A DNA stretch of 64,000 bases from Candidatus Omnitrophota bacterium (GTDB lineage: Bacteria; Omnitrophota; Gorgyraeia; Gygaellales; Profunditerraquicolaceae), in assembly GCA_028712255.1 (NCBI GenBank), contig JAQTQJ010000004.1:19956-83955 (forward strand). Direction: 5' to 3'. The notes under the pieces were generated by a model. The model saw only the letters and a program-made list of their open reading frames with translations. It ran no database searches and was not told the origin of the DNA. Below are positions 3,358 to 47,566 of this stretch, piece after piece. The position numbers were made by a program, and so were the translations under genes. Each line of letters opens with the position of its first letter. The first letter of the stretch is position 1.

Positions 3358-3422
3358 CTTATTTTCCTCCTATTGATTTTGGTTTATTGTACCACCTCAA
3401 AAATTTACCCGCAACCTATTTC

Positions 3423-30592: not shown

Positions 30593-30635
30593 GTCATCCT
30601 GAGTCCGCCAATGCTTTAGTGGCGGACGAAGGATC
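30593..30635. repeat. Family A palindromic element variant (gtcatcctgagtccgccaatgctttagtggcggacgaaggatc), preceded by a cccgcgaaagcgg mini-hairpin
   Basis: Immediately 3-prime of the giant ORF stop; likely terminator function. Confidence 0.65.
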
Positions 30636-33600: not shown

Positions 33601-36600
33601 CAAAAACAAACATATAAGCGCGTTGGCTATTTTTAGTAATAATCTCAAGCCGGTCCACTCCTTCAAACAGCGTATATTTTCCTGTGCCAAAGAACCCGGT
33701 GAGTTCAATCTGGCCTGCGGCTGCCTTAGTAGATTTAGGAATAAGCAAGGCCACCTCTTCTAGGGCGCCGGTCCCATTATCCCGAGCTTCTTCAACATAC
33801 TCTTCTTGGCCTTGAGAGTTTTGCTGAAGGTAAAAATCTACTAATAGCTCCCCGTGTTTACCACGCGTAGCATCACGGGAATTTTGGGCAATCTCAGCAG
33901 TATAGGCGCCAGATTCTCTTTGCACAGTAGCATTAAGTAAAATATCCGATTCTAACTTTGCTGAAGACTGAGGAAGATTAAAAATACTTCTTACAAGTTG
34001 CTCAACGCTCATAACCTTATCCGCGAGCCCGTTCTTTGGCCTTTGCTGCTCAAGTTTAATAATCTGCGACAAGGCTACTGCCTCCTCCGGGCCTCTAGCA
34101 TTAAATTCATCCACACCCTCAGGCTCAGTCCTTTCCTTCTCTCTTAACTGCTCGACATTATTAGTTAAAAAAACCACAAAGGGGCGCGCTTTACCCAGCT
34201 TATGAGCATCCTTAAGTTGAAATGATCTTCGTTCGTTTGCGTCATCAAATAATTCAAAGGCGCTATACAAATCAGATAAATATTTATCTCTGGCTTCTGG
34301 TTTTAAGGCTAATAGCCTATTTATCTGATTGGCAAGGATATGAGCACCATCGGCGTGGTTTGCAGCTTGAAGAGAAACACCTGAGAGAAAATTTATTATT
34401 GATGTAAGCCTTTTAACTTCACCGGGAGTTGCTTCTTTTAGCGCAGCGATGAATTTGATTATTACGGGTAAGATATCTATCTTTTCCTGATAAGTACCCC
34501 AGCCATAAGCAAGGGCTTCAAAAAGTTGATTATCTATCTCAAGATGTTCGATGTTTAACTCTCTCTCCTTAGAAATGCAGATAAGGCTAAAAAACAAATC
34601 AAAATAAAAATCGTATTGATCCTCAATTCTCTCTTGAGAAAGCTGAGTTTTTCTTTCCTGAAGAAATCCGGGCAAAACCCGCAAAAATTGCTGCATCCTT
34701 CGGCTAAAAATATCAAAGGGCAATTCTTCAAGGTTCAAAGGCTGATTATTTTCGAGCGCTTGCCGGAATCTACGATTAATCTCATCTTCTTGGTCTAGAT
34801 AAAGTTCTTTAATCATTTCTCCGAGACTAAAGTCGGACCGATGCTTGAATTCTTCCGGGATTAAATCTAAGAATGGCTGATAAGCAGCCTGCGCCCTAGC
34901 AATAAAAGCGTCACGCTGAGAGAAAACATTATCTCTCCATTTTGCCATAACCTCTTGCGCGTTAATCTGTGCCTCTTCTGCCTGCGCTTGAACTTGAGCG
35001 GGTTGAGGCGCTTGAACAAATACCTTGCGCGGGTCCAGATACCTTATCTCTTGGGTCTGAGGATTAACAAACACAAAATATTCGCCGTTAACGTCTGCAC
35101 AAATAAAATTTTGAGGTACTTGTTTAGTAACACCCTTAATCTCGCCGAAATTATTAACCAAAAGAATGCGTCCATCATGAGTAGCTACAAGAATAAAGTT
35201 ATTATTTTGCTCTATAAAGAATTGATGCTCAAAAAAAAGCGAAGCAACAGGCCTTGACTTATCGGTTATCGCATATACTACTTCAAAACCTCTTTCTGCA
35301 TTTAAAAGATACCAAACCTTGCCACCTTCTAACGACACCACACGATCAGAGGGCTGTATTTGTTTAATATCTGTTAATAATCCGGAATCTAAATTTAAAA
35401 TACACACATCGTGATCACCAGTTGGTAAATAAAAACTACCTTCGTAATGAGAAAAATTACGAAAAATCAAATTATTACCTTGCAGCAAAATGCTCCCCAA
35501 TGGTTCTATGGGAGTACCTCTATTATATTCAAAACCAATTGAGGCCATTACTTCTCCCCAATGCGTCTTATAAGATTCTGGAATTCCATTTGTCTCTTCA
35601 TCCCAAATTGTTTTCTTCTCTAAATCGTATTCTTCCCAGTAACGTCGAGATATCGGGTCTGTTGACGGCCCTGCCTCAATAACTTTAAAAATATTTCGAT
35701 GAATAAATATACCCGGAGCCGCATATCCGCTGGCTCTACTAAATACATCGCACTCTTTAAGTCTCCCATCCTTATTTACTATCAGTAAATAAGTTTTGCC
35801 TCCGTCAGAAGTAACTCTTATTTTACCTCCTTCTTCAAGATCTCGATGTTTAGCTCTCATTGATATAAACATCTCATCTTTCTTTTCTTCTTTTTCATTT
35901 AACCATAAATAATCCAATTTATTGCCGGCCTTAAATATCGCCACTTCTCCGGAAGAATCAATTTCAATGTGGTCAGCGCCTTGGATTAAAAACCTGCCCT
36001 GCCCTAGACTAAATAAACTGTATTTGCCCTGCTTATCCTGGAGAATAACCACATCTGCCTTATCATCTACGCGAAATCCCAACGAATCATGCGTGATTAT
36101 TTGCGGCACCCTATTTGGGGCTGTGTTATAATCACTATATGTAAGGATGTTATTGCCTTGTTTATGCACCGAGAATCTTCCCGAAGCAGACAGAAAAACT
36201 TCTGACGATTCCGATTGCTCTACTCCTGAGGCGGTATCGAGCACAATATAATGCTTCTTATTTGGCGTTCCCAACGGCAACATATCGATTTTCTCTATAA
36301 CCACCAAATTACCCTTTATGGCTACAACAGAGTATGTAGTTCCTATTATGGGCCGTCCGTCAAACAACTGTTGATCTCCCTTATAAATGTAGAAAGAATC
36401 ATTAGATTCATACACAATAAAGGCATCGGTTGACCCTATTCGCTGAACACGAACATATGCAAATGGAGCGGCACGATTTTTATCTTCACGGTTAATAAGG
36501 CTAAAACCTCCGCCGGGTTGCGGAGTAATTATGATAGAATTCGGCGCATCCGCAGGCTTAGTCTCGCTAAATAACGCAGCTGGCTGCACTTGCGGATGAG

Positions 36601-39600
36601 CTAATGGCTCAGCCTCAGTAGATTCTACCTTTTCAACTTCCGCTAATACCTCTATAGCGGCATAATAATTTTCTAGCACCAGAACATTATTATTATTTAT
36701 GAGCTCAAGAATTTCTTTAAGGATTGCCTTGGCCTCAGCTATCCTATTTCCCTTAGCAAATGCCTCAGCTACAGAAACAAGAGCTTCACATTTCATCCGA
36801 ACTTCGTCTTCAGGAATCTTCCTGGTTATCTTCAAGGATTCATCTACTTCACCTATTTGGGCTAACCCTTGAGCTATATTAAATAATAAGCCTGGATAGA
36901 TAGACTTACGAACAACAGAATCCGTATTGAATTGCCCCAAAACTTCCAGTATGCTATTACATAATCGCCCTGCTTCTTTTATATCCCCATTCTCTATCAA
37001 TCCCTTAACTTCATGGGATAGGAACAATAATCTTTCTAGAACACTACCTAGATCCAACTGCTTGATCACAATATCAAATATTTCCTGCAATTTTTCTGGC
37101 CGGACTAAGAATTTATCTGTCCCGACGAAGCTCTTAAGTATGCTATCAAAAACCTGCCCTTTTCGGGTAACATCTGATATTTTGATTGTTATCGAGAGCG
37201 CTTTCTTAAACACGTTTTCTGCATCGGCAATTCTGATCATCTTAAAGTAGGCGGCGGCTACAATAGCCAAGGCTTCCGCCTTATCTTCAGGATCAGTAAG
37301 TTTCTCTGCGATACGTTGCGCTCTTTGCAATAAAGCATAAACTTCTTCTTCTGGTAATTTTGACTCAACTAATGCATTTGTAATATCTAATAACTCTGTT
37401 CCCTTAGACCATGAATTGGGAAACTTTTCTACATTAATGAGTATATCTTCAAATAACTTACCTGCCTCTCTTTGTCTTTCTAGTCTAGAAAATGCCTTGG
37501 CTATAATTGCAAGTATTCGTTCTTTATTATCGAGCTTTTCTACTGTGCCCTTAATCTCTTTTAGCAGAGTAAAAACCTCTTGGATGGTGATATCTGAGGC
37601 GATTAATGCTTCAATAATAGTAGAAATATTCTCACGCAGATCATTATGGCTCATGCCCTTTATCATATTCACTAATTTTGCAAACAAGGCATAAGTTCCA
37701 GCACTTCCTTGTAAACGAGCAGCTCCAGCCAACGCTTCAGTTATAGAAGCAATAGCTCTTGCTTTAGCAGAAGGATCTGGAATGTGGCCTGTAAAATCAA
37801 TAACTTCTTCAAATAGCCCTAACCTTTCAGTAGTACCCATAATAACACCGGCGGATTTATCCATTACCATAACAAAAGCTTTAACCGCTCTAACCATTAA
37901 CCAAGATCTACTACGATTATCATTCTCAAAAACATTTTGTGCCTCAAGATACGCCTTGCGCAGTGTAACAAAAGCTAGATCTTCCTGCCCTATTTCAGCT
38001 TCTGCTAAAGCTGTAGCTATAAGGGCATCACATCCGTCTGCATTCCGATCAGAAGCGTCCTTTTCTACTCTATAAAAATGATGCGCCTTATTCAGCGCTT
38101 CTTTTGCTTCATCAATTCTTCCTGTTTTAGCTAATCCTCTGGCTAATACGGCATAAGCGCGGCATCTTGAATAATCATCAGGCAAGGCCTGCGCAATGCC
38201 ACTGACTACTTTAACTAAATCTAAATCAGCTGGTTCTTTAGCCTGCGCGCCAGCTTCCTTTACGCCTTTTTGCATGCTCATTACAGGAGGCTCTCTTAAA
38301 AATTTATTAATTGCACCGGAATCAATTGCTCCGCTTACCTCTTTAACTTCTGGAATTGCTGTAACTGCCAAGTTATCTTTGGGCTTGGCATGCTCATAAC
38401 TTGTCACCACCTCTTCAGCGGTAATAATGTTTACTCTTTGCAACAGTGAGGAATATTCTTTTTCTTCTTGGGCCGTCAAACCGCCGCTTCTTTTCCTGCT
38501 CAATTCTAATAATCTCCTGCCCAACTCCTGCGGTATAATCACAAAACTTTCGGTTTTGATTACTGGCAGGCGTTCTTCTTTAGCCCAGGTATGCCATAAA
38601 CGGTCAAACTTAAAAAACCTTTTTGTGGCTTCTTGAGTAAAAGGAGCAATAATCAAAGGCAGGTGGCTAGCCCCTCCTAAAGTAACATACGGAATTATCT
38701 CTCCTCCGATTGCGTTTAAGAAACTAGAAAGCTGCCAATCAAATAATTTTCCATGCACAAAAAGTACATCCTTGCCTCCGAGTTCAAGTTTACCAAACTC
38801 TTTCTGCTGAGGCAGGACAATAACCCCCTGATGCCTTAACTCTTGTATTAGGCCGCTGATTACTTCCTGAACATTAGCGCGGATACCTTTTACCAAATGG
38901 CTGCTATTAGCATTGGAATTAATTAAGCCATCAAGGCCAACCATTATGGTATTAATATATTTTATTTTCTCGCGGGTAGTCAATTTGGGATGTTTTACAA
39001 TCTGCTTTATCGCGTACTCTACCCCTTGCTGGAAACTGGGAATCTTGCCGCCTAAATTAAGGCCCATGATAATATTATCCCGGGATTCGGAAACATCCAG
39101 CAAACCGCCTAATTCAAGCATTAAACCGCCTGTTACAGTAGCGCTATCCATAATCTCTCCGGGAATATCTACCGCTATAATTACCTCTCCATTCCTGGCA
39201 AAAGAAACCCGATGGGGAAGCGCTTCATCATGAACAACTTTTACTTTACCCAGTTCTCTATCTATATTTAACTCTAAAGACGCGGGGCGCTTTGTCCCTT
39301 CTTTGGGTACAAACATTTTAGCGAGAACCTCGGCATCCATGCCACTGCCATTATCAACAATAGTTATGGCATGCTCTGAAGTAATTACTTTTACAAACCT
39401 GCCCTGGCTTTCTTCTGGGGCATGAGCCTTGCTCCTCACCGGCACAACTACTCTTTTATTCTCAAACCCGTTAATCTTTACGGGTTCCCTCTGGCCGCTC
39501 ATCTGCGTATAAATATCCACTTCCCCTACAAACGGGAAACGCTGATGTATAGCGTCAGCTATTGCTCCTTGAGAATTACGATGCGTTTCATCACGCTGGC

Positions 39601-42600
39601 TATCCAAGCGCGGAATAGCCTCAACAGTAGACACTTTTACAATAGTGCCATGCTCTATAATTTGGCCGGCATATTCTTGGGCTAGATCCTGATATTCCTG
39701 CGCGGATATCTCTTTAATCTGAATATATCGAGCGCCTTGAGCATCTCTAGTTAGAGTAAGATGATAGGCTTTACTGTTTTCTTTACGTGTAAATATTTCT
39801 ATTTTATCTTCAGCCGAAGGCCCTAACCAATCAATAATCTGCTTTACGCCCTTACTAAATTGGCCTATGCGGAATCCATGCGCATCCAGCCCATTAGATA
39901 CTGCTTCGCATATACTCTGTATCCTTGCATTTTTGTTTTGGTCAACGATCTCTACATCTAATCTTACACCCTCAACAGGATATGTGTCTCCAATAATCAG
40001 GTCTACAACTTCTTTTGCATATCCATTACTGCCAAACCCCTCATATATAGCTTTATATGCAGCTTCTCCTGTAAGAGCAGTATTGAGTTTTAAAAGTTTT
40101 AAAATATCAGGTAATAATTCCCTTGGGATATTTCTTTCTGCCAACCGATACTGTGCCCAGATAAAACGATTAAGGTCGACTAAGTCTATGCTTGGCTGCA
40201 ATTGTATAGTTGCTCTAGCTTTATTCCAAGGCCAGCGTATGCTTTGCGCCCATTCCACTACCATCTTACCCAAATCTATCTGGCCAAATCTATCATAGAA
40301 AAACTGGGCCGGCCCAGAACCAATGACTACGCTCTTGCTACCAGTAGCCGCGCGCGAAGTTGAAGTTGCCAGCTGCGGCGCTGGCGTTACTTGAGCTACC
40401 TTTAACACCTGGCCTTTATTCGTAGTAGATATATACTTTTTGATCGCATCAAATAGATCGGATCCGTCAACATATTGAAGCAGGTTATTGATTGCGGACA
40501 CATTTTTGAAAAATAACCGGATCCTCAGCGGCGTATCATACCCTCGCTTTTCAAATTCTGCCATTAAGAGATTGGCAACACTTGAGCTGACATCTTTTCC
40601 TTGGATTAGATCAATAACTGTTGACCAAGAAAATATTTTCTTTAGGATTACTGACCGTATCTCTTGGCGAACCTTATCCTGATCGGTTTTATCCGGATTT
40701 ACTTGCAAAAGATAATTAATCAGCGCATCAACTTTACCCATAAAATTAAATTTCCAAGCCATACTTAATCGGGTAATTAGATCAATATCCACAGGTAATA
40801 ATTTAAGATAATAATTTCTATCGATTACTATTTTTTCATATGATCCGTCGGGTCTTTTATTAAGCATTAAATTACCGATATGAAAATCCGAATGCGCCAT
40901 ATATATGGTTTCTCCGGAATAGGAATCTGCAACCGGAGTCAACAAATGCGTCAAATAATCCCTGGCAAAATCAGCTAACGCCGCTTTTAGTTTTGAATCA
41001 CTCACTCTTCCTTTCTTATCCGTCTGGGCGGGAACAACCTGGTCGCCCCCATTTAATATCTTCTTAAGCGTATCCCCTGGAGCATATTCCTCAACTTTTA
41101 TTCTGTATCCATATGGCTGCAAAACACGCGATGTGGTTATTGAGCCTGCCGCAGGATAAAATACAGCTGAAGAAAATATCGCATCGTCACTTAAGAAAAA
41201 GCCATCATTAATGTCATCTTTGACCCACAACCTTAAAGTACCCAACAATCGTTCTGCCATAATGTATTGCCGTTCATTTTTAGGGTCTTTAGCAATTAAA
41301 TCTTTCACTGTTTTTTGCATTTGTTCTGCGCGTTCGCCTAATAGAACCTCAAGATTCGGAGATATAATTTTTACCACCTGTCTAGCAACACTCCCATCCG
41401 GTTGTGTCACTGACACTAAATACGCGGTATTAATGGAGCCCCCGCCTAACACTTTTTCTATCCTAAGATGTATTTTTAAATACTCCATTGCTTCAACCTG
41501 TGCAGTATAAAATGCTTTAAAACTTGCCAAGGTTTCTGTGAACACCTCTTCAAACATTGATGCGGTACGTTCATTATATTCAGTAAGCTTTTTATCCCGT
41601 AAATTTTGGGCAAATAAAGATAAGAATACGCGTTGATCGTAATCTTGAAGCGGGCTGTCATTTAAATTAAAACGGAATCCCAGAAAATTAATTGCTTCTG
41701 CCCGGAACTGTTTAAGATATTCAGTTAGCGGTATTGTTTGGCCTGCTTCCATCAGGCGCTTTGACCATTCAGCATAAGCAGCGGATTTAATCCACGCCCC
41801 ATCCCGGACTGTTTGCATACGCTCAATTTCAACTGCCAGCGACTGAAACAAATTACTCTTTACCAGAGTAGAGGCGTTATCATACACATTACTGAACTCT
41901 TCCTTATATTCTTGCGGGATAGCGTAATACTGGCCAAATACTTGTAGGAACCGGACACCGAGCGCGCCAATTGCTTGCCCTGCGGTAGCAATGAATTTAC
42001 CTAACCTTATAGATAATGCTTTAGTTTTTCCAACTGTAGTTTTAAATTGAAATACCGCATTCTCCTGGCGATAATATTCCCGCTCTTTTGCTTGAAACTT
42101 AAGCAGCTGCGGGTTGATCATCGATTCGCCGGGATTAAATACCGCATACACTGCCTCAATCTCAGTATCGGGAATATATGACGGGTTATCCTTCAGAAAC
42201 GCAAAGAATTGTTCTGCTGTTTTACCATACTCCTGCGTTACGTACTTCTTATATTTTTGATATTGCTTGTGCTCTTTTAATTGTCTATCATAACCATGTT
42301 CTTTCCACCGTTTACGATCATAACTGCTTCGGCCATATGATTTCTGTAGCTCTTCCAAGCTCAAAAGATTTTGTGTCGGCCGATAAATTTCATTCTGAAA
42401 ACGCTCATAAGCAGGTAACCACCTCTGTAACCTGGAATCCCGCACAAATGGATCAGCTGGCTGTGTAAACCACGACATAACTGCGGCGCGGTGTGTATAC
42501 GCAGGATCACCGACCAACGCATGTTCCGCAAGAACTTTTGATAAGAAAAGTGTTAGCTCGCTATTGTCCACATTCGCTAAAAATGCCACTAGAATATTTT

Positions 42601-45600
42601 GCATAAGTTGTAATTCTTCTGGTTTCATACCTGAAACATTCCCTAAAATCCATGCGCTGAGTTTCTCCAAATTTTCTGCCCGGAAAAACACAGCGTTATA
42701 TTTTGACAAAAGCCTCTGGAAGAAAACAAAACGCTCAAGTTGTGTCATGGAATAAAAACGGTTCATCCAATCATCAACGCGTTGAACATCCGTAATAGCG
42801 CTAACATCAACGTCGTCTCTCTGTTGCGCTTCTGCCCGAATCTTAGTAATCGTCTCCATGATTACCGATGCAAGATAATCATCATCTCCTGTTACCATTG
42901 CCTTCATAAAATCCATCGCCTGTTTTTCACCAATCTTCATCTCCTCAAGTGTTTTATCCAATGCCATAAAACCACCCAGCATCACTTTTCCATCAAGGCT
43001 ATTGCCCTTCTCGTAAACACTCACTAATTGTTGATATTGTTGATATTCGGCATCCGTATCCACGCGCTCCTGGCGGAAATAATACAACGCATCAAAATTT
43101 CCATATCCTAACTCATTTGATACAAACGTGTAGGCATCGGAAAATTTCCCTTCCTTGATTATGCGGTGGCGCAGATTCGTCAGAAGCTCACGTTTCTGCC
43201 TTCCCGGAGGAGAATAACGCTCAATAAAATAATACGCTTCTTCCAAATCTTTCCAAGAACTCACTGACAATGACGCTGCGTAAAGTTGCAAGCTTACTAA
43301 TTTTGCTTCAATTACAGGGTGAAGAAAATTAAGTTCATCTGAATCCTTGCCATAATAATTAATTAATACTTCCTGTCCAAGAAACCGGCTACGGCCTCCA
43401 ATAGCAGAAATAGATCCTTGATTTTTTATCTTTCTTGCCGATATCTCTGCATTAGACAATGCAAATGATGCATGGATACTATCGGTAAGCGCCTGCAATT
43501 GTTGAATCGATAATAAACTAAGCTTATTTATCAGTGTTGCTTGCGCAGCTTCTGCATCAAAATCGGTAAGCGCTGCATTGGCGAGTGAATTATCATTAAC
43601 CGCATCGGCATAAATAAACTGTCTTGCTTTTCGGACAGTAGTATATTCTAATCTTTTCTTTTTTGCTTGCCCGCTGACAGATTGCGCAATCGCAGCAAGC
43701 TCTTCACGTTGCGGGTTTTGCTCCCATAACAGGTAATATTTTTGGTCCATTTGACGCAAAATAACCTCATAATCTTCTTCATTAACCTTTGATTCTTCCC
43801 TGCTCTTACTTTCTACGCAAAGAATATCTCTTCGAATAGCGCTCTCAATAAAAAATGCTTCGCTCAATGATGCCTTCTGATATGCAATAAACTCGCTACT
43901 TACTAAGAACTGTTCCATCGCCTCCCGGTAGAACACGGCATAAGCCTGAGCTTGTGCTCTATCTGTACTCATCCGGCTAATGCCTTCTACGCTAATTGGC
44001 AACCATAATCGCCCGTCCTTATCTTGAAAATGATTTGCTGTGAATTTTTGTATATACATTCGCAAGAATCCAACTCTATCCCCTTGAGCCATATATTCAT
44101 AAAGCCCTATCTGCTTTCCATACTCCGGTAATTTTGCTTGCTGCAATACCCGGTTAGTCGCTTCCATTCTGAGCCCATAACTTAACGGGTTTACGCTTGA
44201 AAATATATCAAATAGCGACGAACTAAGCCATAAAGTTAGATCCACATACGTCATACGGCCAAACCTGTTATGAATTTCTTCTCCAAGTTCGGTGTCATTT
44301 GGTTGGCGATTAGAATAGTCTTTGGCTTCTTGCAAATCCTGAGTATTACGAATCCATTCGGCGGTAAAGGTAACTAATTGTCCCAATTTCTTCTTCTGTG
44401 CTTCTGATAACCGGCTTGAGAATTGCTCGTAAGAATCAAAATCCTTACGGAGCGCTGCTTCTTCATTAAAAATGTCATGCCACAATGACCCTACAAAATA
44501 CCATTGATGCGGATTTTCGCTCCCAACCAGTCTCTGTTTTCGTATATCCTCATTGGCCCTCTTTGGATAATAAACAAAAGAAGGATCAAGGATATTCTTT
44601 TCAACATACTTCTTGCTTGAAATATACTGCTCGAGAAATATTCTATATGTTTCAAAGTCTTTTTCAGAATCAAAAGAATTTATTAAATTTGAATAAAACA
44701 CGGAGAAATAATACTGCCGAAGCTGCCTTAAATAATCAGAAAGCCATATCCGTGAGCCACCAAACGCAGGATTGGAAATCTTCCCGCTTGCATTAAATGC
44801 TAGTGTAATCGCAGTAATCCTCTTGCCAAAACCATCAAGGCTCAACAGTGAGCCATCAAAAGTAAAGAAATTGTAGACCTCTTGCCACTCCTGAACATTA
44901 GGAGATTCTGTTTGGATATTTAGTAATCGCATAAAGTAATCTCCCAGATAGGGGGCCATATCGTAGCCATCAGGATTATCATTGCGAGAGGAAAGCAGTG
45001 ACAAGGCCAAATATCGAACTACCTCATCTGTACTCTCGGCTGGAAGGCCATCCGCGCATGCAGTATTCTCTTTCAAGAGATACTGGCTGATATATACAAG
45101 TTTCTGCCAACTAAGATAGTAAGATGCCGCATTAAACGGTTGCCTCTGTTGTGTTCCGATAAATTCTTCGATGATGAATTTATATTGCTCTTGCGAAGAT
45201 AGTGTTTTTTGGGTCAACTCCCCCCAAGTATCTTTAAAATCCTGAAATGAAGATTGTTTTAAGTACGTTAAATAATCAAGGACAATAAAATACCCTTCCG
45301 GAGATTTCCAGTACCCCTCTAACGGATGAAAGGCGTTAACATGCGTCAAATCCTGTCCCTGTAAATTCATGCGCAGAAGCGTCGTTCGATCAAATTGACT
45401 TCCATGCGTCCAGTCAGAGCTCCCCTTCACAAAGCTTTCCAGCTTGTTAGATAAATAAATAACCGCGAGTTGATTAAATCCAATACCGTTGATTAACGAA
45501 GGAGAAACTGCATCCGCCTTATATTCCCCAAGACGTTTATCTAAAGGGGTACCGACGTTATTCCAGGTTAAATAATTATCCTGATAATGTGACAATTCAT

Positions 45601-47419
45601 GCGCGAGCACCGCGGCAATTTCATCAGAAAAATCCAGGCCATCAAGTAATTTTTGCGTAATCACCACAGAGCCGTCAGGAAGGCAATACGCATTGACTAC
45701 CGGCTCAAGAGATATGTATACTTTTATATCCGTACGTAGCTGTTTGTGCCCTGCCCGATCGTTGAGCCTAGTGGTAATCTTGGTAATCGTATCCGATAAA
45801 AACGCATACTGTTTGCTGTTGGCATCTGCGCCAGGATCCAAAATTCCGTAGCGCTCGTTTACTAAACCCAAAAACTTTTGGAATTCTTGTTCATCTCGTA
45901 GGACAGTAGGATCACTTACTGTAAAATGGTAATCCTTCGGCAAAATTGCGTATGTTTGCGCAACTTTATCATATTGTTTCTTAACGGCATCGAATACTGG
46001 TATCGATGATAGGGGATTTTGTGATGATGAAGCATTCTTCTTAATTGACTTAACGGCATTTGAAATACCTGCCTGAAACTTCTGGAGTAATGATTGAGCT
46101 TGTTTTGTTGGTCCTGGTTGGGGAATATTCTCAAGATTAGGGGATGGTTCTATTCCTTTGGCCTCAGCAGCAGCCACGCTTGGGGCACTCTCCCCTACAC
46201 CTGCTACTACGTCTATCTCTGAACCTCGAACATTCACTTCGGCTAGATCAGAATTGCTTACACTGGGATCACCGACAGTGGGAGCTATAGTAGTTATTGT
46301 TCCTGCCGGGTTAACAGAAGTGGCTTGTCCAAAAGCAGGAATTACCTGGCCGATGGCAAAGCCTCCTGAAAAGTAACTCCTGATACTCTGGCCAAAAGGG
46401 GTACTGATGGGTTCTTGAATGTTGTATTGGCCTTTAGCAAAGTTCTCCTTGTAGGCATTGAAATAGGTAGCTACGGAGTAGGGGATTTGGATTTTAAGGT
46501 TAGTGAGATCTTTAGAATCAATAGTTGGGTAGGGTAGGTTTAAACCTGCCCTACCACCTTGAGTTGTTGGGGACAGTCCCCTATGCCTGGCTTTGAACCA
46601 TTGGGCAAGAATTAGTGAGTAGTAGACCTGTCTTAGGGGAGCATAACGCTTGGCATTGTTGATTTCTTTGGTTAACCTGGGAATAATATCCTCTCTTATG
46701 ATTTGAGCGGAGTAGGCGTTGAGCTGCCTTTCTCTTACGTCTTTGAAAGAGTAGACAACATTATCTTTTAGATAGTCTTGCTCAAGCATTACTTTAAGGG
46801 TTGCCTTGTAGATATAGGCTGAATCTACTGATTCACGGATAATGATCTCATCCGGGACGATCCAGGGGCGGGTTAGCGTGGGAATGGTTACGTTCTGGGT
46901 GCCATAGAGCTCTTGGGCGCGTGTATAGAGTTTATCCCAGTACTCTTTGCCTTGAGGAGTAGAAGGATTAGTGGCATCAGCAGTGTCTTTTTTAAGCTGG
47001 AGGTCTGCTTCCAGGAGGATCTTGCCTATTTGAGTTTGAGCTAGGAGTGGATCAATGATATCATCGGGTAAATCAGGGCGAAGGTTAACCCAAAAGGTGC
47101 CATTGGGTAGAGCGATACCTGTAAAGAAGTAGTTGAGCAGGTCTTTGGTAGTTGATTCAAGTCCAGGGGTCCTCTTATCCTTAAACTGGTCTCCTTTGTC
47201 TAAAAGAAGTTTAAAGTTGTTGTTTAGGCTATCATAAGAGATAGATCTTAGGTGTAGGGGACGGAATTTATCGGGAGATAGAGCATTGTGCAGGGAATTA
47301 AGAGTGCCGGCGATATTTAACTCTGCATTGGCTACTTGGGCAAAGCCGGTTTGTTGCAATAAAAGAGATACGCACAGCAGAATAGAAAGAATCTTAAAGG
47401 TTTTGGATTTTTTCATCAT
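30635..47419 (-). CDS. Giant secreted multidomain protein (5594 aa, single ORF): signal peptide, M48-like HExxH peptidase, UbiB/ABC1-like kinase, GHKL ATPase module(s), TPR-like repeats, beta-rich region, second HExxH motif
   Basis: Uninterrupted 16,785-nt minus-strand reading frame; individual motifs located by residue counting and verified against the DNA (HELSH at 45587..45601, EIAQNSRDA at 33869..33895, HELGH at 32285..32299). Confidence 0.9.
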   Translation of the reverse strand: MMKKSKTFKILSILLCVSLLLQQTGFAQVANAELNIAGTLNSLHNALSPDKFRPLHLRSISYDSLNNNFKLLLDKGDQFKDKRTPGLESTTKDLLNYFFTGIALPNGTFWVNLRPDLPDDIIDPLLAQTQIGKILLEADLQLKKDTADATNPSTPQGKEYWDKLYTRAQELYGTQNVTIPTLTRPWIVPDEIIIRESVDSAYIYKATLKVMLEQDYLKDNVVYSFKDVRERQLNAYSAQIIREDIIPRLTKEINNAKRYAPLRQVYYSLILAQWFKARHRGLSPTTQGGRAGLNLPYPTIDSKDLTNLKIQIPYSVATYFNAYKENFAKGQYNIQEPISTPFGQSIRSYFSGGFAIGQVIPAFGQATSVNPAGTITTIAPTVGDPSVSNSDLAEVNVRGSEIDVVAGVGESAPSVAAAEAKGIEPSPNLENIPQPGPTKQAQSLLQKFQAGISNAVKSIKKNASSSQNPLSSIPVFDAVKKQYDKVAQTYAILPKDYHFTVSDPTVLRDEQEFQKFLGLVNERYGILDPGADANSKQYAFLSDTITKITTRLNDRAGHKQLRTDIKVYISLEPVVNAYCLPDGSVVITQKLLDGLDFSDEIAAVLAHELSHYQDNYLTWNNVGTPLDKRLGEYKADAVSPSLINGIGFNQLAVIYLSNKLESFVKGSSDWTHGSQFDRTTLLRMNLQGQDLTHVNAFHPLEGYWKSPEGYFIVLDYLTYLKQSSFQDFKDTWGELTQKTLSSQEQYKFIIEEFIGTQQRQPFNAASYYLSWQKLVYISQYLLKENTACADGLPAESTDEVVRYLALSLLSSRNDNPDGYDMAPYLGDYFMRLLNIQTESPNVQEWQEVYNFFTFDGSLLSLDGFGKRITAITLAFNASGKISNPAFGGSRIWLSDYLRQLRQYYFSVFYSNLINSFDSEKDFETYRIFLEQYISSKKYVEKNILDPSFVYYPKRANEDIRKQRLVGSENPHQWYFVGSLWHDIFNEEAALRKDFDSYEQFSSRLSEAQKKKLGQLVTFTAEWIRNTQDLQEAKDYSNRQPNDTELGEEIHNRFGRMTYVDLTLWLSSSLFDIFSSVNPLSYGLRMEATNRVLQQAKLPEYGKQIGLYEYMAQGDRVGFLRMYIQKFTANHFQDKDGRLWLPISVEGISRMSTDRAQAQAYAVFYREAMEQFLVSSEFIAYQKASLSEAFFIESAIRRDILCVESKSREESKVNEEDYEVILRQMDQKYYLLWEQNPQREELAAIAQSVSGQAKKKRLEYTTVRKARQFIYADAVNDNSLANAALTDFDAEAAQATLINKLSLLSIQQLQALTDSIHASFALSNAEISARKIKNQGSISAIGGRSRFLGQEVLINYYGKDSDELNFLHPVIEAKLVSLQLYAASLSVSSWKDLEEAYYFIERYSPPGRQKRELLTNLRHRIIKEGKFSDAYTFVSNELGYGNFDALYYFRQERVDTDAEYQQYQQLVSVYEKGNSLDGKVMLGGFMALDKTLEEMKIGEKQAMDFMKAMVTGDDDYLASVIMETITKIRAEAQQRDDVDVSAITDVQRVDDWMNRFYSMTQLERFVFFQRLLSKYNAVFFRAENLEKLSAWILGNVSGMKPEELQLMQNILVAFLANVDNSELTLFLSKVLAEHALVGDPAYTHRAAVMSWFTQPADPFVRDSRLQRWLPAYERFQNEIYRPTQNLLSLEELQKSYGRSSYDRKRWKEHGYDRQLKEHKQYQKYKKYVTQEYGKTAEQFFAFLKDNPSYIPDTEIEAVYAVFNPGESMINPQLLKFQAKEREYYRQENAVFQFKTTVGKTKALSIRLGKFIATAGQAIGALGVRFLQVFGQYYAIPQEYKEEFSNVYDNASTLVKSNLFQSLAVEIERMQTVRDGAWIKSAAYAEWSKRLMEAGQTIPLTEYLKQFRAEAINFLGFRFNLNDSPLQDYDQRVFLSLFAQNLRDKKLTEYNERTASMFEEVFTETLASFKAFYTAQVEAMEYLKIHLRIEKVLGGGSINTAYLVSVTQPDGSVARQVVKIISPNLEVLLGERAEQMQKTVKDLIAKDPKNERQYIMAERLLGTLRLWVKDDINDGFFLSDDAIFSSAVFYPAAGSITTSRVLQPYGYRIKVEEYAPGDTLKKILNGGDQVVPAQTDKKGRVSDSKLKAALADFARDYLTHLLTPVADSYSGETIYMAHSDFHIGNLMLNKRPDGSYEKIVIDRNYYLKLLPVDIDLITRLSMAWKFNFMGKVDALINYLLQVNPDKTDQDKVRQEIRSVILKKIFSWSTVIDLIQGKDVSSSVANLLMAEFEKRGYDTPLRIRLFFKNVSAINNLLQYVDGSDLFDAIKKYISTTNKGQVLKVAQVTPAPQLATSTSRAATGSKSVVIGSGPAQFFYDRFGQIDLGKMVVEWAQSIRWPWNKARATIQLQPSIDLVDLNRFIWAQYRLAERNIPRELLPDILKLLKLNTALTGEAAYKAIYEGFGSNGYAKEVVDLIIGDTYPVEGVRLDVEIVDQNKNARIQSICEAVSNGLDAHGFRIGQFSKGVKQIIDWLGPSAEDKIEIFTRKENSKAYHLTLTRDAQGARYIQIKEISAQEYQDLAQEYAGQIIEHGTIVKVSTVEAIPRLDSQRDETHRNSQGAIADAIHQRFPFVGEVDIYTQMSGQREPVKINGFENKRVVVPVRSKAHAPEESQGRFVKVITSEHAITIVDNGSGMDAEVLAKMFVPKEGTKRPASLELNIDRELGKVKVVHDEALPHRVSFARNGEVIIAVDIPGEIMDSATVTGGLMLELGGLLDVSESRDNIIMGLNLGGKIPSFQQGVEYAIKQIVKHPKLTTREKIKYINTIMVGLDGLINSNANSSHLVKGIRANVQEVISGLIQELRHQGVIVLPQQKEFGKLELGGKDVLFVHGKLFDWQLSSFLNAIGGEIIPYVTLGGASHLPLIIAPFTQEATKRFFKFDRLWHTWAKEERLPVIKTESFVIIPQELGRRLLELSRKRSGGLTAQEEKEYSSLLQRVNIITAEEVVTSYEHAKPKDNLAVTAIPEVKEVSGAIDSGAINKFLREPPVMSMQKGVKEAGAQAKEPADLDLVKVVSGIAQALPDDYSRCRAYAVLARGLAKTGRIDEAKEALNKAHHFYRVEKDASDRNADGCDALIATALAEAEIGQEDLAFVTLRKAYLEAQNVFENDNRSRSWLMVRAVKAFVMVMDKSAGVIMGTTERLGLFEEVIDFTGHIPDPSAKARAIASITEALAGAARLQGSAGTYALFAKLVNMIKGMSHNDLRENISTIIEALIASDITIQEVFTLLKEIKGTVEKLDNKERILAIIAKAFSRLERQREAGKLFEDILINVEKFPNSWSKGTELLDITNALVESKLPEEEVYALLQRAQRIAEKLTDPEDKAEALAIVAAAYFKMIRIADAENVFKKALSITIKISDVTRKGQVFDSILKSFVGTDKFLVRPEKLQEIFDIVIKQLDLGSVLERLLFLSHEVKGLIENGDIKEAGRLCNSILEVLGQFNTDSVVRKSIYPGLLFNIAQGLAQIGEVDESLKITRKIPEDEVRMKCEALVSVAEAFAKGNRIAEAKAILKEILELINNNNVLVLENYYAAIEVLAEVEKVESTEAEPLAHPQVQPAALFSETKPADAPNSIIITPQPGGGFSLINREDKNRAAPFAYVRVQRIGSTDAFIVYESNDSFYIYKGDQQLFDGRPIIGTTYSVVAIKGNLVVIEKIDMLPLGTPNKKHYIVLDTASGVEQSESSEVFLSASGRFSVHKQGNNILTYSDYNTAPNRVPQIITHDSLGFRVDDKADVVILQDKQGKYSLFSLGQGRFLIQGADHIEIDSSGEVAIFKAGNKLDYLWLNEKEEKKDEMFISMRAKHRDLEEGGKIRVTSDGGKTYLLIVNKDGRLKECDVFSRASGYAAPGIFIHRNIFKVIEAGPSTDPISRRYWEEYDLEKKTIWDEETNGIPESYKTHWGEVMASIGFEYNRGTPIEPLGSILLQGNNLIFRNFSHYEGSFYLPTGDHDVCILNLDSGLLTDIKQIQPSDRVVSLEGGKVWYLLNAERGFEVVYAITDKSRPVASLFFEHQFFIEQNNNFILVATHDGRILLVNNFGEIKGVTKQVPQNFICADVNGEYFVFVNPQTQEIRYLDPRKVFVQAPQPAQVQAQAEEAQINAQEVMAKWRDNVFSQRDAFIARAQAAYQPFLDLIPEEFKHRSDFSLGEMIKELYLDQEDEINRRFRQALENNQPLNLEELPFDIFSRRMQQFLRVLPGFLQERKTQLSQERIEDQYDFYFDLFFSLICISKERELNIEHLEIDNQLFEALAYGWGTYQEKIDILPVIIKFIAALKEATPGEVKRLTSIINFLSGVSLQAANHADGAHILANQINRLLALKPEARDKYLSDLYSAFELFDDANERRSFQLKDAHKLGKARPFVVFLTNNVEQLREKERTEPEGVDEFNARGPEEAVALSQIIKLEQQRPKNGLADKVMSVEQLVRSIFNLPQSSAKLESDILLNATVQRESGAYTAEIAQNSRDATRGKHGELLVDFYLQQNSQGQEEYVEEARDNGTGALEEVALLIPKSTKAAAGQIELTGFFGTGKYTLFEGVDRLEIITKNSQRAYMFVFAVIRDSSGRPTAVKLTRIRKITDPKVAQGVTVRRIKSLDNTIPELDQMLSQRSWKIFVGLAQDEHFKVFFIDHEGKKQQLAVEKDILAEVEFKAVRPQEKDETNFGPLRIISAKDMPLQIVDKAGLRVSEMKEEYLALIPSVLRRHIQELGIIIQIPLPLIRNRSAFEHENEFLPQIQRYVAVAFFQAIAYKALSQSSPQFVFEGFPLDWETNDSYWQSINPASDRWILGVANDINVGRIERISEEALRGLLTEPGKLDKEKKFTKLILLLEVFSNRQNSDSKVSLLTRRLAIQEETNKAILGAAKLQRELLMSGGFNLGRLPSLSDIPFSGNKVMQALGIALGHDQMQRPERYILNPNDYNDNERELVTLAWGIARNFGIEQIILLNDEVRFAGAFKIYQGKHTMFLARSIASEIGRAATNSTAIDSATDTIVHELGHLLEEFMRQDNAGRFWQEGYIAHLSDFTHDAVGTFAEAMKYAAAVSLNNGDGSVSLEMDSGETEPSPSSLNPTSPDTGINLASGTMPNGLNNTISQGDGSVEIQVYINNGEIYYEVRKNKELVKTIRGDDPKKAFKEAKQVAAEALAGSNEATEPSHITSEERDKTLRRYADTQRSIDKDDEENLGLPNGLELIISGESPEIIRFKEEIFSMLAEVGFDRNNPEHLEILSQEYAKTLKEYIEGMRQGVRTAKYFGLDAKTSFSPDEIKDAWRDITKLIVDKIKMKMKAEALRKVFPRASKEIFREWDSYGDMLGKLLIDDTQEGIFAFYEKAGRPPVPIAWAMISKDVEGRVTRVLSALDINRSQKGYKSLKASILADLKEYLENEIAKPKTTGPINGSTSSSSNSAFAPGGIDSSTTLTIDSRQGEKLGGIDFRFLPIVIQSIDSLKAGIRSLPQSTLQGINLTQEWSDIERLVNSGITPSAERLKEYLAASCFKGSLDQDTNRIVSCIADILRMEEESCCLTDPTLKDILVVLGSGRSGEELRIAFNK
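32088..32140. repeat. 19-bp perfect inverted repeat inside the giant ORF (ggggacggttctgtttctc ... gagaaacagaaccgtcccc), in frame, encoding GDGSVSLEMDSGETEPSP
   Basis: Seen directly; same GGGGACGGTTCT core as the family B terminator hairpins. Confidence 0.85.
32240..32512 (-). other. Giant protein: second HExxH zincin-like motif (TIVHELGHLLEEF, aa ~5040)
   Basis: HELGH verified in the DNA at 32285..32299; surrounding fold unassigned (DUF4157-like possibility). Confidence 0.3.
33560..33952 (-). other. Giant protein: Hsp90/MORC/sacsin-like GHKL ATPase module 2 (aa ~4490-4620)
   Basis: N-box EIAQNSRDA (ExxxNxxDA), G1-box ARDNGTGA (DxGxG) 35 aa later, G2-box GFFGTGKYTLF 28 aa later; order and spacing canonical for the Bergerat fold. 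Confidence 0.6.
35000..36472 (-). other. Giant protein: beta-strand-rich region, possible beta-propeller (aa ~3650-4140)
   Basis: Recurrent short hydrophobic strands with G/D/N turns (ILVATHDGRILLVNNFGEI, YLLIVNKDGRL); composition-based. Confidence 0.25.
36620..38182 (-). other. Giant protein: TPR/HEAT-like alpha-helical repeat region (aa ~3080-3600)
   Basis: Repeated amphipathic helix pairs with A/L/E/K-rich patterning (RIDEAKEALNKA, RIAEAKAILKEI); composition-based. Confidence 0.35.
39260..39922 (-). other. Giant protein: tentative GHKL-like ATPase module 1 (aa ~2500-2720)
   Basis: N-box-like CEAVSNGLDAH and a strong G1-box AITIVDNGSGMDAEVLAKMF, but the spacing (~180 aa) is atypical. Confidence 0.3.
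40640..41542 (-). other. Giant protein: UbiB/ABC1-like atypical kinase module (aa ~1960-2260)
   Basis: GGGSINTAYLVSV (ASIAQVH-like), ARQVVKIISP (VAVKVQRP-like), HSDFHIGNLM (HADPHPGN-like catalytic motif), VIDRNYY. Confidence 0.5.
45320..45802 (-). other. Giant protein: M48-family zinc metallopeptidase-like module (aa ~540-700)
   Basis: VYISLEPVVNAYCLPDGSVVITQKLLDGLDFSDEIAAVLAHELSHY matches the M48 (HtpX/Ste24/BepA) core around HExxH. Confidence 0.65.
47324..47419 (-). other. Giant protein: Sec signal peptide (aa 1-32, MMKKSKTFKILSILLCVSLLLQQTGFAQVANA|E)
   Basis: Basic N-region, hydrophobic core, AxA cleavage motif. Confidence 0.7.
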
Positions 47420-47516
47420 TTTGCCTACCGGTTTATTAACTTACTATAAGTATGCTATATAGGTAAGTAAAAACAAGGGTAAAATAAGGAAAAAAGAAAG
47501 GGTTTTCAGAATGATA

Positions 47517-47566
47517 AAAAGGGGACGTTTCCCTCTAAGGCTATAGGGAAACGTCCCCTTTTATTG
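47517..47566. terminator. Intrinsic terminator hairpin downstream of secA (aaaaggggacgtttccct-ctaaggctat-agggaaacgtcccctttt)
   Basis: Perfect 18-bp stem flanked by A/T tracts. Confidence 0.75.

What the first reader, a model, noticed from the sequence alone, without database searches (positions are those of the whole stretch)
45320..45802. M48 (HtpX/Ste24/BepA-like) zinc peptidase core near the N-terminus of the giant protein
The stretch VYISLEPVVNAYCLPDGSVVITQKLLDGLDFSDEIAAVLAHELSHY is a close match to the conserved M48 block around the HExxH zinc site. HELSH was verified at the nucleotide level (45587..45601). A second, less well-supported HELGH zincin motif lies near the C-terminus (32285..32299). 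A leading peptidase module could process the giant protein itself or a target.
Basis: partly seen in the sequence, partly recalled or inferred. Interest (0 to 1): 0.55.

Follow-up and report, generated by a model that had tools for sequence, protein, structure and literature searches.

The report
M48 protease head of giant protein
The flagged stretch is a real M48-family zinc protease domain with all catalytic residues, but it is the front end of a 1,860-residue protease-plus-kinase-like unit that also exists as a stand-alone protein and has been spliced into a 5,594-residue secreted protein of an Omnitrophota-like bacterium.

Summary
HELSH (aa 607-611, 45587..45601) and HELGH (aa 5041-5045, 32285..32299) both lie in one 5,594-aa ORF (30635..47419, minus strand).

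The first motif belongs to a genuine M48 metallopeptidase domain (aa ~530-690):
- Pfam Peptidase_M48 scores 45.5 bits (cut-off 20.3).
- H607, E608, H611, E632 and D636 are invariant in a 27-sequence alignment.
- The third zinc ligand is E632 (EYKAD), 20 residues after H611, not 60-80. The segment that forms BepA's alpha6-lid is missing.
- The M48 plug motif is kept as H672-G-x4-R678.
- An AlphaFold model (pLDDT 83) matches only M48 structures (BepA, 3C37).

The domain is not a free-standing leader peptidase. It heads a conserved cassette (aa 471-2334): M48, a ~1,100-aa helical region, then an ABC1/UbiB-like kinase domain. The cassette occurs as stand-alone 1,300-1,700-aa proteins, and at internal or C-terminal positions in other giant proteins.

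The host protein has a signal peptide, no other hydrophobic segment, and conserved N- and C-terminal ends around a swappable middle.

HELGH is conserved in five homologues, but no family or fold match was found.

This is an ordinary family in an unusual, undescribed architecture.

The parts
30635..47419 (-). Giant ORF of 5,594 aa. It has its own start, preceded by the secA terminator.
47324..47419 (-). Predicted Sec signal peptide (aa 1-32: MMKKSK, a hydrophobic core, then VANA|E). This is the only hydrophobic segment in the protein.
   Evidence: Kyte-Doolittle scan; sequence reading. No dedicated signal-peptide predictor was run.
46220..47323 (-). Conserved N-terminal domain (aa ~33-400). It defines a family of Omnitrophota-type proteins. 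No Pfam match.
   Evidence: 49-74% identity in 8 MAG loci, ending at aa ~355-460; Pfam found nothing
40418..46009 (-). Conserved cassette, aa 471-2334: M48 domain, ~1,100-aa helical region, ABC1/UbiB-like kinase domain.
   Evidence: 61% identity over 1,876 aa to P0001 and 54% over 1,930 aa to P0002. Stand-alone 1,300-1,700-aa proteins align to both ends of the cassette.
45350..45832 (-). M48 metallopeptidase domain (aa ~530-690); this is the finding.
   Evidence: Pfam PF01435 at aa 546-615; profile match to 3C37 and BepA across the whole domain; AF2 model plus Foldseek
45587..45601 (-). HELSH (aa 607-611). H607 and H611 are the zinc ligands and E608 the general base.
   Evidence: invariant in alignment A1
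45512..45526 (-). EYKAD (aa 632-636). E632 is the third zinc ligand, equivalent to BepA E201. D636 is equivalent to BepA D205.
   Evidence: Invariant in A1; aligned to the NEQEAD motif of BepA and YENQAD of 3C37
45386..45406 (-). HGSQFDR (aa 672-678). This is the M48 'HPx4R' autoinhibitory plug motif with Pro replaced by Gly.
   Evidence: the role of the motif is taken from PMC13655028
40418..42022 (-). ABC1/UbiB-like kinase domain of the cassette (aa ~1800-2334). Motifs: GALGVRFLQVFGQ at 1818, GGGSINT at 1992, HSDFHIGN at 2176-2183, IDRN at 2199.
   Evidence: blastp to the regions of P0073, P0050 and P0014 that carry Pfam ABC1; motif table. The giant's own sequence misses Pfam ABC1.
32120..33019 (-). 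Conserved block (aa 4801-5100) containing HELGH (aa 5041-5045, 32285..32299). Candidate zincin, unassigned.
   Evidence: Five homologues keep ATDT(I/V)VHEL(G/A)H...WQEGY.AH..FTHDAVGTFAEAMKY. AF2 pLDDT is 64, and there is no significant Foldseek or Pfam hit.
30752..31021 (-). Conserved C-terminal segment (aa 5467-5556), shared with a much shorter relative.
   Evidence: 69% identity in L003, about 900 aa after that protein's N-domain

Best explanation
Residues ~530-690 form a catalytically complete M48-family (gluzincin) zinc metallopeptidase domain.

Shown:
- H607 and H611 (HELSH) and E632 (EYKAD) are the three zinc ligands, and E608 is the general base.
- D636 and R678 correspond to the BepA D205-R252 pair that holds the autoinhibitory plug.
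- H672, in H-G-x4-R, corresponds to BepA H246, the fourth zinc ligand of the latent state.
- The ~40-residue segment that forms BepA's membrane-inserting alpha6-lid is absent. The domain is therefore a compact, soluble, lid-less M48.
- The domain is the N-terminal head of a conserved ~1,860-aa cassette (aa 471-2334) that ends in an ABC1/UbiB-like kinase domain. The cassette exists as stand-alone proteins without signal peptides and is inserted at different positions in several giant proteins.
- Here the cassette follows a signal peptide and a conserved 400-aa N-terminal domain, in a protein that has no other hydrophobic segment.

Inferred:
- The protease is made latent, with the plug His on the zinc, and is switched on by displacement of the plug.
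- It works together with the kinase-like domain of its own cassette on a defined target. It is not a general processing protease for the giant protein.
- Because the cassette's partner domain needs ATP and the host protein is exported, the likely site of action is another cell (prey or host). This fits the lifestyle reported for Omnitrophota.
For: Family and catalytic residues:
- Pfam Peptidase_M48: E 1e-11, 45.5 bits against a 20.3 cut-off.
- Single-sequence PDB hits are to M48 3C37 (E 0.002) and BepA.
- In the 27-sequence alignment, H607, E608, H611, E632 and D636 are invariant and R678 is nearly invariant.
- The profile of that alignment matches 3C37 at E 4e-29 and BepA at E 6e-23 over the whole domain. 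EYKAD aligns to (Y/N)E(N/Q)(Q/E)AD and HGx4R aligns to THPx4R.
- A profile built only from 17 cassette-type sequences still hits canonical M48 proteins at E 1e-11 to 1e-25, with the same motif register.
- The AF2 model has pLDDT 83 and pTM 0.77. The nine Foldseek PDB hits with E <= 5e-4 are all M48 (BepA 6AIT/6SAR, 3C37), followed by ZMPSTE24 and selecase.

Cassette:
- blastp gives 61% and 54% identity over ~1,900 aa to P0001 and P0002. Stand-alone proteins align to both ends, and the alignments stop at their own C-termini.
- Pfam finds M48 plus ABC1 in P0050, P0073 and P0014.
- All 21 cassette-type proteins have HSDxHxGN 1,036-1,568 aa after HExxH.

Topology and regulation:
- The single hydrophobic segment is aa 8-26.
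- The plug and lid roles in BepA are taken from PMC13655028.
Against: - No biochemical data exist. Zinc binding, activity and latency are inferred from motif conservation.
- The Pfam match on the giant itself covers only profile positions 8-79 of 186. The C-terminal half of the domain is assigned through family alignments and the model, not by the single-sequence hit.
- The plug motif has Gly where M48 proteins have Pro, and P247 is part of the BepA hydrogen-bond network, so plug behaviour may differ.
- I could not obtain model coordinates to measure the ligand geometry.
- The giant's kinase-like part does not reach Pfam ABC1 by itself (best hit EcKL, E 0.005).
- Action inside another cell is pure inference. 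No delivery machinery was identified. An exported ATP-dependent domain is a puzzle rather than evidence.
- The taxonomy of relatives rests on MAG binning of short contigs (the P0001 contig is 18.5 kb).
Confidence: 0.75

Rival explanations
1. Leader or self-processing protease. After export, the M48 domain cuts the giant polyprotein at its low-complexity linkers and releases the individual modules.
For: - The domain lies early in the protein, just after the conserved N-domain and a linker.
- Modules are separated by low-complexity linkers.
- Another member of the same N-domain family (L004) also has an M48 domain, of a different subtype, ~1,140 aa from its N-terminus.
- West-Roberts et al. propose the same role for the C39 and S8 domains near the N-termini of Omnitrophota giants.
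Against: - The same M48 head is found in stand-alone 1,300-1,700-aa proteins that have nothing to process.
- In P0001, P0002 and P0003 it sits at aa 1386, 4502 and 5008, always at a fixed distance upstream of the kinase-like domain.
- Four of the eight N-domain relatives show no HExxH in their first ~1,400 aa.
Confidence: 0.15
2. Non-proteolytic role. The M48 fold is kept as a permanently plugged binding or chaperone-like module, as in BepA's protease-independent function, or as a regulatory cap for the kinase-like domain.
For: - The plug His and its Asp/Arg clamp are conserved.
- The lid that takes part in BepA activation is missing, so the known activation route is not available.
Against: All catalytic residues, including the general base E608, are invariant across 27 diverse sequences. 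This argues for retained catalysis. Pseudo-enzymes usually lose at least one of them.
Confidence: 0.08
3. Chance HExxH motif in a non-peptidase helical region, or in a non-coding or artefactual ORF.
For: HExxH is short, and the Pfam alignment covers less than half of the model.
Against: - The composite motif never occurs in shuffles.
- Profile E-values reach 4e-29 against a solved M48.
- The fold search returns only M48 structures.
- The ORF is 16.8 kb without a stop, and homologues share 54-61% identity.
Confidence: 0.01

Closest known systems
BepA/YfgC of E. coli (M48, PDB 6AIT, 6SAR)
   Same: - It has the same motif set: NAF...G.(I/V) strand, HExxH, ExxAD (E201/D205), HPx4R plug (H246/R252).
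- It is a soluble protease that acts outside the cytoplasm.
- It is the best Foldseek hit (E 3e-5) and matches the family profile at E 6e-23.
   Different: - The giant's domain lacks the ~40-residue alpha6-lid (20 aa versus 60 aa between the second His and the Glu).
- It has Gly instead of Pro in the plug motif.
- It has no TPR domain directly attached.
- It scores only 16.7 bits against the NCBIfam BepA equivalog, whose cut-off is 570, so it is not a BepA orthologue.
Geobacter sulfurreducens M48 peptidase Q74D82 (PDB 3C37)
   Same: It is a small soluble M48 domain. It is the best sequence hit (E 0.002 single sequence; E 4e-29 with the profile) and has the best target-normalised TM-score (0.53).
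   Different: 3C37 has a ~25-residue longer linker before the Glu helix and a canonical THP plug. It is a stand-alone 253-aa protein.
HtpX, Ste24/ZMPSTE24 and Oma1 (membrane M48A/B/C)
   Same: They share the HExxH...ExxAD gluzincin core. ZMPSTE24 and Ste24p appear as weaker hits.
   Different: Those enzymes are integral membrane proteins. This domain has no transmembrane segment. The NCBIfam HtpX models score 12-18 bits against cut-offs of 275-422.
UbiB/ABC1/COQ8 atypical kinases (partner domain of the cassette), and the plant plastoglobule pairing of ABC1K kinases with the M48 protease PGM48
   Same: - Cassette homologues carry Pfam ABC1.
- The catalytic loop HxDxHxGN is conserved.
- In plastoglobules, ABC1K6 dosage changes PGM48 abundance (PMC8956952). 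M48 and ABC1 proteins are therefore already known to share a compartment.
   Different: - Here the two are fused in one polypeptide, separated by ~1,100 aa.
- The Ala-rich loop of UbiB is replaced by GGGS, and the KxGQ lysine is not kept (VFGQ).
- No link to quinone biosynthesis is evident.
Omnitrophota giant proteins (Archaeovorins and Dockerin-type; West-Roberts et al. 2023, bioRxiv 10.1101/2023.11.21.568195)
   Same: - The organism is an Omnitrophota-type bacterium.
- The protein is very long and multi-enzyme, with a peptidase near the N-terminus after a signal peptide.
- It contains GHKL-like ATPase motifs and TPR repeats.
   Different: - This protein is far shorter (5.6 kaa versus >30 kaa).
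- It has no transmembrane helices apart from the signal peptide, and no SecA_DEAD, C39, S8 or dockerin domains.
- It belongs to the minority class with a signal peptide and no transmembrane helix (9% of long Omnitrophota proteins in 10.64898/2026.06.07.730766).

Membership tests
Peptidase family M48 (Pfam PF01435; MEROPS M48) | HExxH zinc-binding and catalytic motif on the active-site helix | tested here: met
   HELSH at aa 607-611. H, E and H are invariant in 27 sequences. The motif lies in predicted helix 128-147 of the model.
Peptidase family M48 (Pfam PF01435; MEROPS M48) | Third zinc ligand Glu in an E-x-x-A-D motif on the following helix (BepA E201/D205; the ligand numbering is from my own knowledge, the D205 role from PMC13655028) | tested here: met
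   EYKAD at aa 632-636. E and D are invariant. The motif aligns to YENQAD of 3C37 and NEQEAD of BepA. The spacing is 20 aa rather than ~60.
Peptidase family M48 (Pfam PF01435; MEROPS M48) | HPx4R motif (autoinhibitory plug; BepA H246...R252) | tested here: met
   H672-G-S-Q-F-D-R678 has the same H-to-R spacing and aligns to THPx4R of 3C37 and BepA. Pro is replaced by Gly, or by Gln in sister clades.
Peptidase family M48 (Pfam PF01435; MEROPS M48) | Family HMM score above the curated threshold | tested here: met
   45.5 bits against a gathering score of 20.3, E 1e-11. The local alignment covers only profile positions 8-79 of 186.
Peptidase family M48 (Pfam PF01435; MEROPS M48) | Gluzincin/M48 fold | tested here: met
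   The AF2 model has pLDDT 83 and pTM 0.77. All nine Foldseek PDB hits with E <= 5e-4 are BepA or 3C37. TM-scores are modest (0.38-0.53) because the 320-aa model includes flanking helices.
Peptidase family M48 (Pfam PF01435; MEROPS M48) | Zinc binding and peptide hydrolysis | not testable with these tools
   Needs protein biochemistry.
BepA, HtpX and LoiP orthologue groups (NCBIfam equivalogs) | Full-length equivalog HMM score above the cut-off | tested here: not met
   Scores are 12-18 bits against cut-offs of 275-570. The domain is an M48 family member but not an orthologue of any named enzyme.
BepA-type regulation | alpha6-lid (about 44 residues, Q154-T197) between HExxH and the Glu helix | tested here: not met
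   Only 20 residues separate H611 and E632. The lid appears as an insertion in BepA relative to the cassette profile. Lid definition is from PMC13655028.
ABC1/UbiB atypical kinase (Pfam PF03109), partner domain of the cassette | Family HMM hit and the HxDxHxGN catalytic loop | tested here: inconclusive
   The giant's own sequence gives no ABC1 hit. Its homologues P0073, P0050 and P0014 do (E 1e-18 to 5e-9), in regions that blastp aligns to giant aa ~1930-2313. HSDFHIGN and IDRN are present.
Archaeovorin and Dockerin-type Omnitrophota giant proteins | Numerous transmembrane helices plus SecA_DEAD-like, or dockerin, domains | tested here: not met
   There is one hydrophobic segment only, the signal peptide. 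No such Pfam domains were found.
Zincin peptidase (for the second motif, HELGH at aa 5041) | HExxH conserved among homologues, plus a family or fold match | tested here: inconclusive
   The motif and a following WQEGY.AH..FTHD block are conserved in five homologues. The model shows three strands and then the HExxH helix. However, pLDDT is 64, the best Foldseek E is 0.09 and not to a peptidase (SPRTN at E 1.4), and there is no Pfam hit.

The most novel reading that the evidence does not exclude
The M48-helical-ABC1-like cassette may be a self-contained two-enzyme effector unit: a latent protease plus an ATP-dependent kinase-like switch. On this reading, ultra-small host-dependent bacteria (Omnitrophota, and possibly Patescibacteria) exchange it and plug it into polymorphic secreted giant proteins that have conserved N- and C-terminal delivery ends. 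It would then act inside prey or host cells. The fusion would also be a 'Rosetta stone' for a direct functional coupling between M48 proteases and UbiB-family proteins, which so far are known only to share compartments (plastoglobules, mitochondria).
Probability: 0.25. Interest if true: 0.65.

Novelty: new variant of a known kind. Interest (0 to 1): 0.4.

Why it matters
As a domain call this is routine. NCBI already labels two homologues 'M48 family metalloprotease'. Three things are less routine.

1. This is a lid-less M48 that keeps the autoinhibitory plug. It is a natural test case for how M48 proteases are unlocked without the lid mechanism just described for BepA.
2. The M48 head has a fixed partnership with an ABC1/UbiB-like domain in 21 of 21 relatives. 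I found no paper describing this architecture. It suggests that the two enzyme families, both poorly understood, work on a common substrate.
3. The host protein belongs to a family with conserved ends and a swappable middle. That is the logic of polymorphic effectors, and it offers an entry point into what the long secreted proteins of Omnitrophota do.

Tried and rejected
- The word-indexed homology search with aa 474-786 found nothing. The exhaustive HMMER scan was needed.
- Single-sequence PDB and NCBIfam searches align only up to HExxH. Taken alone they would suggest a truncated domain. Family alignments corrected this.
There is none. It is at +20.
- SecA lies directly upstream, which could suggest a dedicated export partner. 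I rejected this: a strong terminator hairpin separates the two genes, and no relative has secA upstream.
- PADLOC defence models give no hits on the cassette, the N-domain or the C-terminal third.
- The ABC1 call on the giant itself fails in Pfam and in PDB sequence search. It rests on transitive homology.
- The literature search for an M48-ABC1 fusion found only the plastoglobule co-localisation.
Full report
**1. The observation**

The window carries a 16,785-nt ORF on the minus strand (30635..47419) encoding 5,594 aa.
- HELSH is aa 607-611, encoded at 45587..45601.
- HELGH is aa 5041-5045, at 32285..32299.
- The flagged interval 45320..45802 is aa 540-700.

From the protein's composition, only 0.077 HExxH motifs are expected. 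Two or more occur in 0.1% of shuffles. The composite pattern HExxH-(10-90)-ExxAD-(20-70)-Hx5R never appears in 2,000 shuffles.

**2. Is it an M48 peptidase domain?**

Four independent lines say yes.

(a) Pfam Peptidase_M48 hits aa 546-615 with E 1e-11 and 45.5 bits, against a gathering score of 20.3. This local match stops just after HExxH, at profile positions 8-79 of 186. Single-sequence matches to PDB (3C37 at E 0.002; BepA at ~0.1) and to the NCBIfam HtpX/BepA/LoiP models stop at the same point.

(b) An exhaustive HMMER scan of 1.84 billion representatives with aa 440-1200 found 126 proteins.
- Most are ordinary M48 peptidases of 200-500 aa.
- Sixteen are long proteins whose alignment runs on past HExxH.
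- In a 34-sequence MAFFT alignment and a 27-sequence alignment (A1), H607, E608, H611, E632 and D636 are invariant. A577, G583, E600 and R678 are nearly so.

(c) The profile of A1 matches the solved M48 peptidase 3C37 at E 4e-29 and BepA at E 6e-23 across the whole domain.
- EYKAD (aa 632-636) falls on YENQAD of 3C37 and NEQEAD of BepA.
- HGSQFDR (aa 672-678) falls on THPLTSER and THPLPESR.
- A1 contains a few canonical M48 sequences, so I rebuilt a profile from 17 cassette-type sequences only. It still finds canonical M48 proteins at E 1e-11 to 1e-25 in the same register.

(d) An AlphaFold2 model of aa 471-790 built on A1 has mean pLDDT 83 and pTM 0.77.
- It shows the expected order: helices, a three-stranded sheet, the HExxH helix, then the Glu helix.
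- The nine Foldseek hits in the PDB with E <= 5e-4 are all BepA or 3C37. They are followed by ZMPSTE24 and the minigluzincin selecase.

**3. What kind of M48 is it?**

In BepA the corresponding stretch (H140 to E201; the ligand numbering is from my own knowledge) holds the alpha6-lid, residues Q154-T197. A 2026 study shows that this lid inserts into the outer membrane to help unlock the enzyme (PMC13655028). That segment is simply missing here. It appears as an insertion in BepA and 3C37 relative to the cassette profile.

The same paper describes two further elements.
- The HPx4R motif is the core of the autoinhibitory plug. H246 is the fourth zinc ligand of the latent state.
- D205 and R252 form a hydrogen-bonded clamp that holds the plug.

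All three positions are conserved here (H672, D636, R678) with identical spacing. Pro247 is replaced by Gly, or by Gln in a sister clade.

The domain is therefore a compact, soluble, lid-less M48 that keeps the plug. It is not an orthologue of HtpX, BepA or LoiP: it scores 12-18 bits against cut-offs of 275-570.

Short-linker M48 proteins also occur as small 170-240-aa proteins (P0020, P0026, P0065, P0067, P0113). The short spacing is therefore a subclass feature, not a defect.

**4. The surroundings change the interpretation**

The similarity to the two best hits does not stop at the peptidase.
- Giant aa 471-2334 aligns over 1,876 aa at 61% identity with P0001 (aa 1247-3109 of 5,426).
- Giant aa 412-2327 aligns over 1,930 aa at 54% with P0002 (aa 4295-6213 of 6,217).
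- P0003 (6,575 aa), P0005 (2,945 aa), P0017 (2,411 aa) and a set of stand-alone proteins of 1,315-1,718 aa align to both ends of this interval. These ends are the M48 part (giant aa ~530-690) and a C-terminal part (giant aa ~1800-2330). In the stand-alone proteins the alignment ends within a few residues of the C-terminus.

Pfam finds Peptidase_M48 at the N-terminus and the ABC1 atypical kinase domain (PF03109) at the C-terminus of P0050, P0073 and P0014. JGI names P0050 an AarF/ABC1/UbiB-type kinase, and NCBI names P0001 and P0073 'M48 family metalloprotease'.

In all 21 cassette-type proteins examined, the kinase catalytic loop HSDxHxGN lies 1,036-1,568 residues after HExxH.

The giant's own kinase-like part (GALGVRFLQVFGQ at 1818, GGGSINT at 1992, HSDFHIGN at 2176, IDRN at 2199) does not reach Pfam ABC1 by itself. 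Its assignment therefore rests on transitive homology.

The flagged peptidase is thus the head of an evolutionary unit: M48, a ~1,100-aa helical region, and an ABC1-like domain.
- It lives as a stand-alone protein without a signal peptide (N-termini). One example, P0018, sits among housekeeping genes.
- It has been inserted near the N-terminus (this window), in the middle (P0001, P0005) or at the C-terminal end (P0002, P0003) of very long proteins.

**5. The host protein**

A Kyte-Doolittle scan finds a single hydrophobic segment, aa 8-26, in a typical signal peptide (MMKKSK...VANA|E). No dedicated signal-peptide predictor was run.

The first ~400 aa are 49-74% identical to the N-termini of proteins on eight MAG contigs. 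Most are labelled Omnitrophota. The similarity stops at aa ~355-460.

One of these relatives (L003) also shares the giant's C-terminal ~90 aa at 69%, only ~900 aa after its N-domain. The family therefore has conserved ends and a variable middle.

Another relative (L004) carries a different, canonical long-linker M48 domain (HEFIH...EEKSAD...SHPAVAQR; Pfam E 1.1e-9). Four relatives show no HExxH in their first ~1,400 aa.

The neighbours are housekeeping genes: secA, prfB and a PilT-like ATPase upstream, lnt and lipid A acyltransferase downstream. A terminator hairpin (47516..47558) separates secA from the giant gene, and the synteny is not conserved. No anti-phage defence model matches.

Compared with the published Omnitrophota giants (Archaeovorins and Dockerin-type), this protein differs in three ways.
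- It is much shorter.
- It lacks transmembrane helices.
- It lacks SecA_DEAD, C39, S8 and dockerin domains.

It falls in the minority class with a signal peptide and no transmembrane helix.

**6. How it most likely works**

Shown:
- The domain has a complete M48 catalytic set, a conserved plug and clamp, and no lid.
- It has an obligatory partnership with an ABC1-like domain.
- It sits in an exported, soluble host protein.

Inferred:
- The protease is synthesised latent, with H672 on the zinc, and is activated by displacement of the plug.
- Since the lid route is unavailable, the trigger probably comes from within the cassette (the helical region or the ATP-dependent ABC1-like domain) or from the substrate.
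- It acts on a defined target together with its kinase-like partner.
- An ATP-requiring domain has no fuel outside the cytoplasm. The exported giant version may therefore act inside another cell. This fits the predatory or parasitic lifestyle reported for Omnitrophota, but no delivery device was identified.

It is disfavoured because the same head occurs in proteins with nothing to process, and at non-leading positions.

A purely non-catalytic role is unlikely, given the invariant general base.

**7. The second motif**

HELGH (aa 5041) lies in a block (aa 4801-5100) conserved at 39-53% identity in five metagenomic proteins. All keep ATDT(I/V)VHEL(G/A)H followed by WQEGY.AH..FTHDAVGTFAEAMKY.

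It follows GHKL/Hsp90-like ATPase motifs: IAQNSRDA at 4510, RDNGTGA at 4546, GFFGTGKYT at 4575. These give weak Hsp90 N-domain hits at E 0.02-0.1.

The AF2 model is mediocre (pLDDT 64). It shows three strands followed by the HExxH helix, as in zincins. However, Foldseek finds nothing significant (best E 0.09; SPRTN at E 1.4) and Pfam finds nothing. The verdict is a conserved candidate metal site with membership unproven.

**8. Novelty and verdict**

The family call is ordinary, and automatic pipelines make it for homologues. The variant is less ordinary: a lid-less, plug-retaining M48 that is permanently coupled to an ABC1/UbiB-like domain and embedded in a polymorphic secreted giant protein. 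I found no description of this architecture. The nearest parallel is the co-residence of ABC1K kinases and the M48 protease PGM48 in plant plastoglobules.

Caveat: the taxonomic labels of relatives (Paceibacteria, Microgenomates, Planctomycetales, Margulisiibacteriota) rest on binning of short contigs. They should not be read as proof of cross-phylum transfer.

Interest is moderate (0.4). The finding is a solid annotation with a testable mechanistic twist.

Noticed in passing
window 46220..47419 and 30752..31021 (minus strand); loci L001-L008: The giant's first ~400 aa (49-74% identity) recur at the start of otherwise unrelated proteins in eight Omnitrophota-type MAG contigs. L003 also shares the giant's C-terminal ~90 aa (69%) only ~900 aa downstream of its N-domain. 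This looks like a polymorphic protein family with conserved ends and a swappable middle. Neither end has a Pfam match.
   Followed up: partly
L004:3323-4551 (+): A relative with the same N-terminal domain carries a different, canonical long-linker M48 domain (HEFIH...EEKSAD...SHPAVAQR; Pfam E 1.1e-9) about 1,140 aa from its N-terminus. L005 (HEFSH...EFIAD) and L008 (HELAH) have other HExxH modules with no family match.
   Followed up: partly
window 33671..33892 (aa 4510-4583) and 39335..39907 (aa 2505-2695), minus strand: There are two sets of GHKL/Bergerat-type ATPase-like motifs: IAQNSRDA / RDNGTGA / GFFGTGKYT, and EAVSNGLDA / VDNGSGMD. The first set gives weak Hsp90 N-domain hits (E 0.02-0.1), has no Pfam hit, and precedes the conserved HELGH block, suggesting a second ATPase-plus-zincin-like cassette.
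   Followed up: partly
window 47516..47558 (minus strand): A perfect 13-bp GC-rich hairpin (ggggacgtttccc...gggaaacgtcccc) followed by TTTTT lies between the secA stop codon and the giant gene's start. The giant gene is therefore its own transcription unit despite sitting 153 nt downstream of a full-length secA.
   Followed up: yes
window 37190..38161 (aa ~3087-3410) and aa ~3480-4000, minus strand: There is a TPR-repeat region (Pfam TPR_12 E 8e-8, TPR_2 E 8e-5), followed by a long region that looks beta-rich and repeat-like by eye and has no family match.
   Followed up: no
P0001 (NCBI MBT4358903.1), P0145, L003, L006: Close relatives of an Omnitrophota-type protein are labelled Paceibacteria, Microgenomates, Planctomycetales and Margulisiibacteriota. 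The contigs are short (for example 18.5 kb that is almost entirely one gene). Either these cassettes move between phyla, or the bins are contaminated.
   Followed up: no
L009:6001-11031 (+): The stand-alone M48-ABC1 protein P0018 (1,676 aa, no signal peptide) sits among housekeeping genes (ileS, glycogen phosphorylase, pnp, peroxiredoxin) on contigs seen in several samples. The cassette there looks like a normal chromosomal gene, not part of a mobile element.
   Followed up: partly
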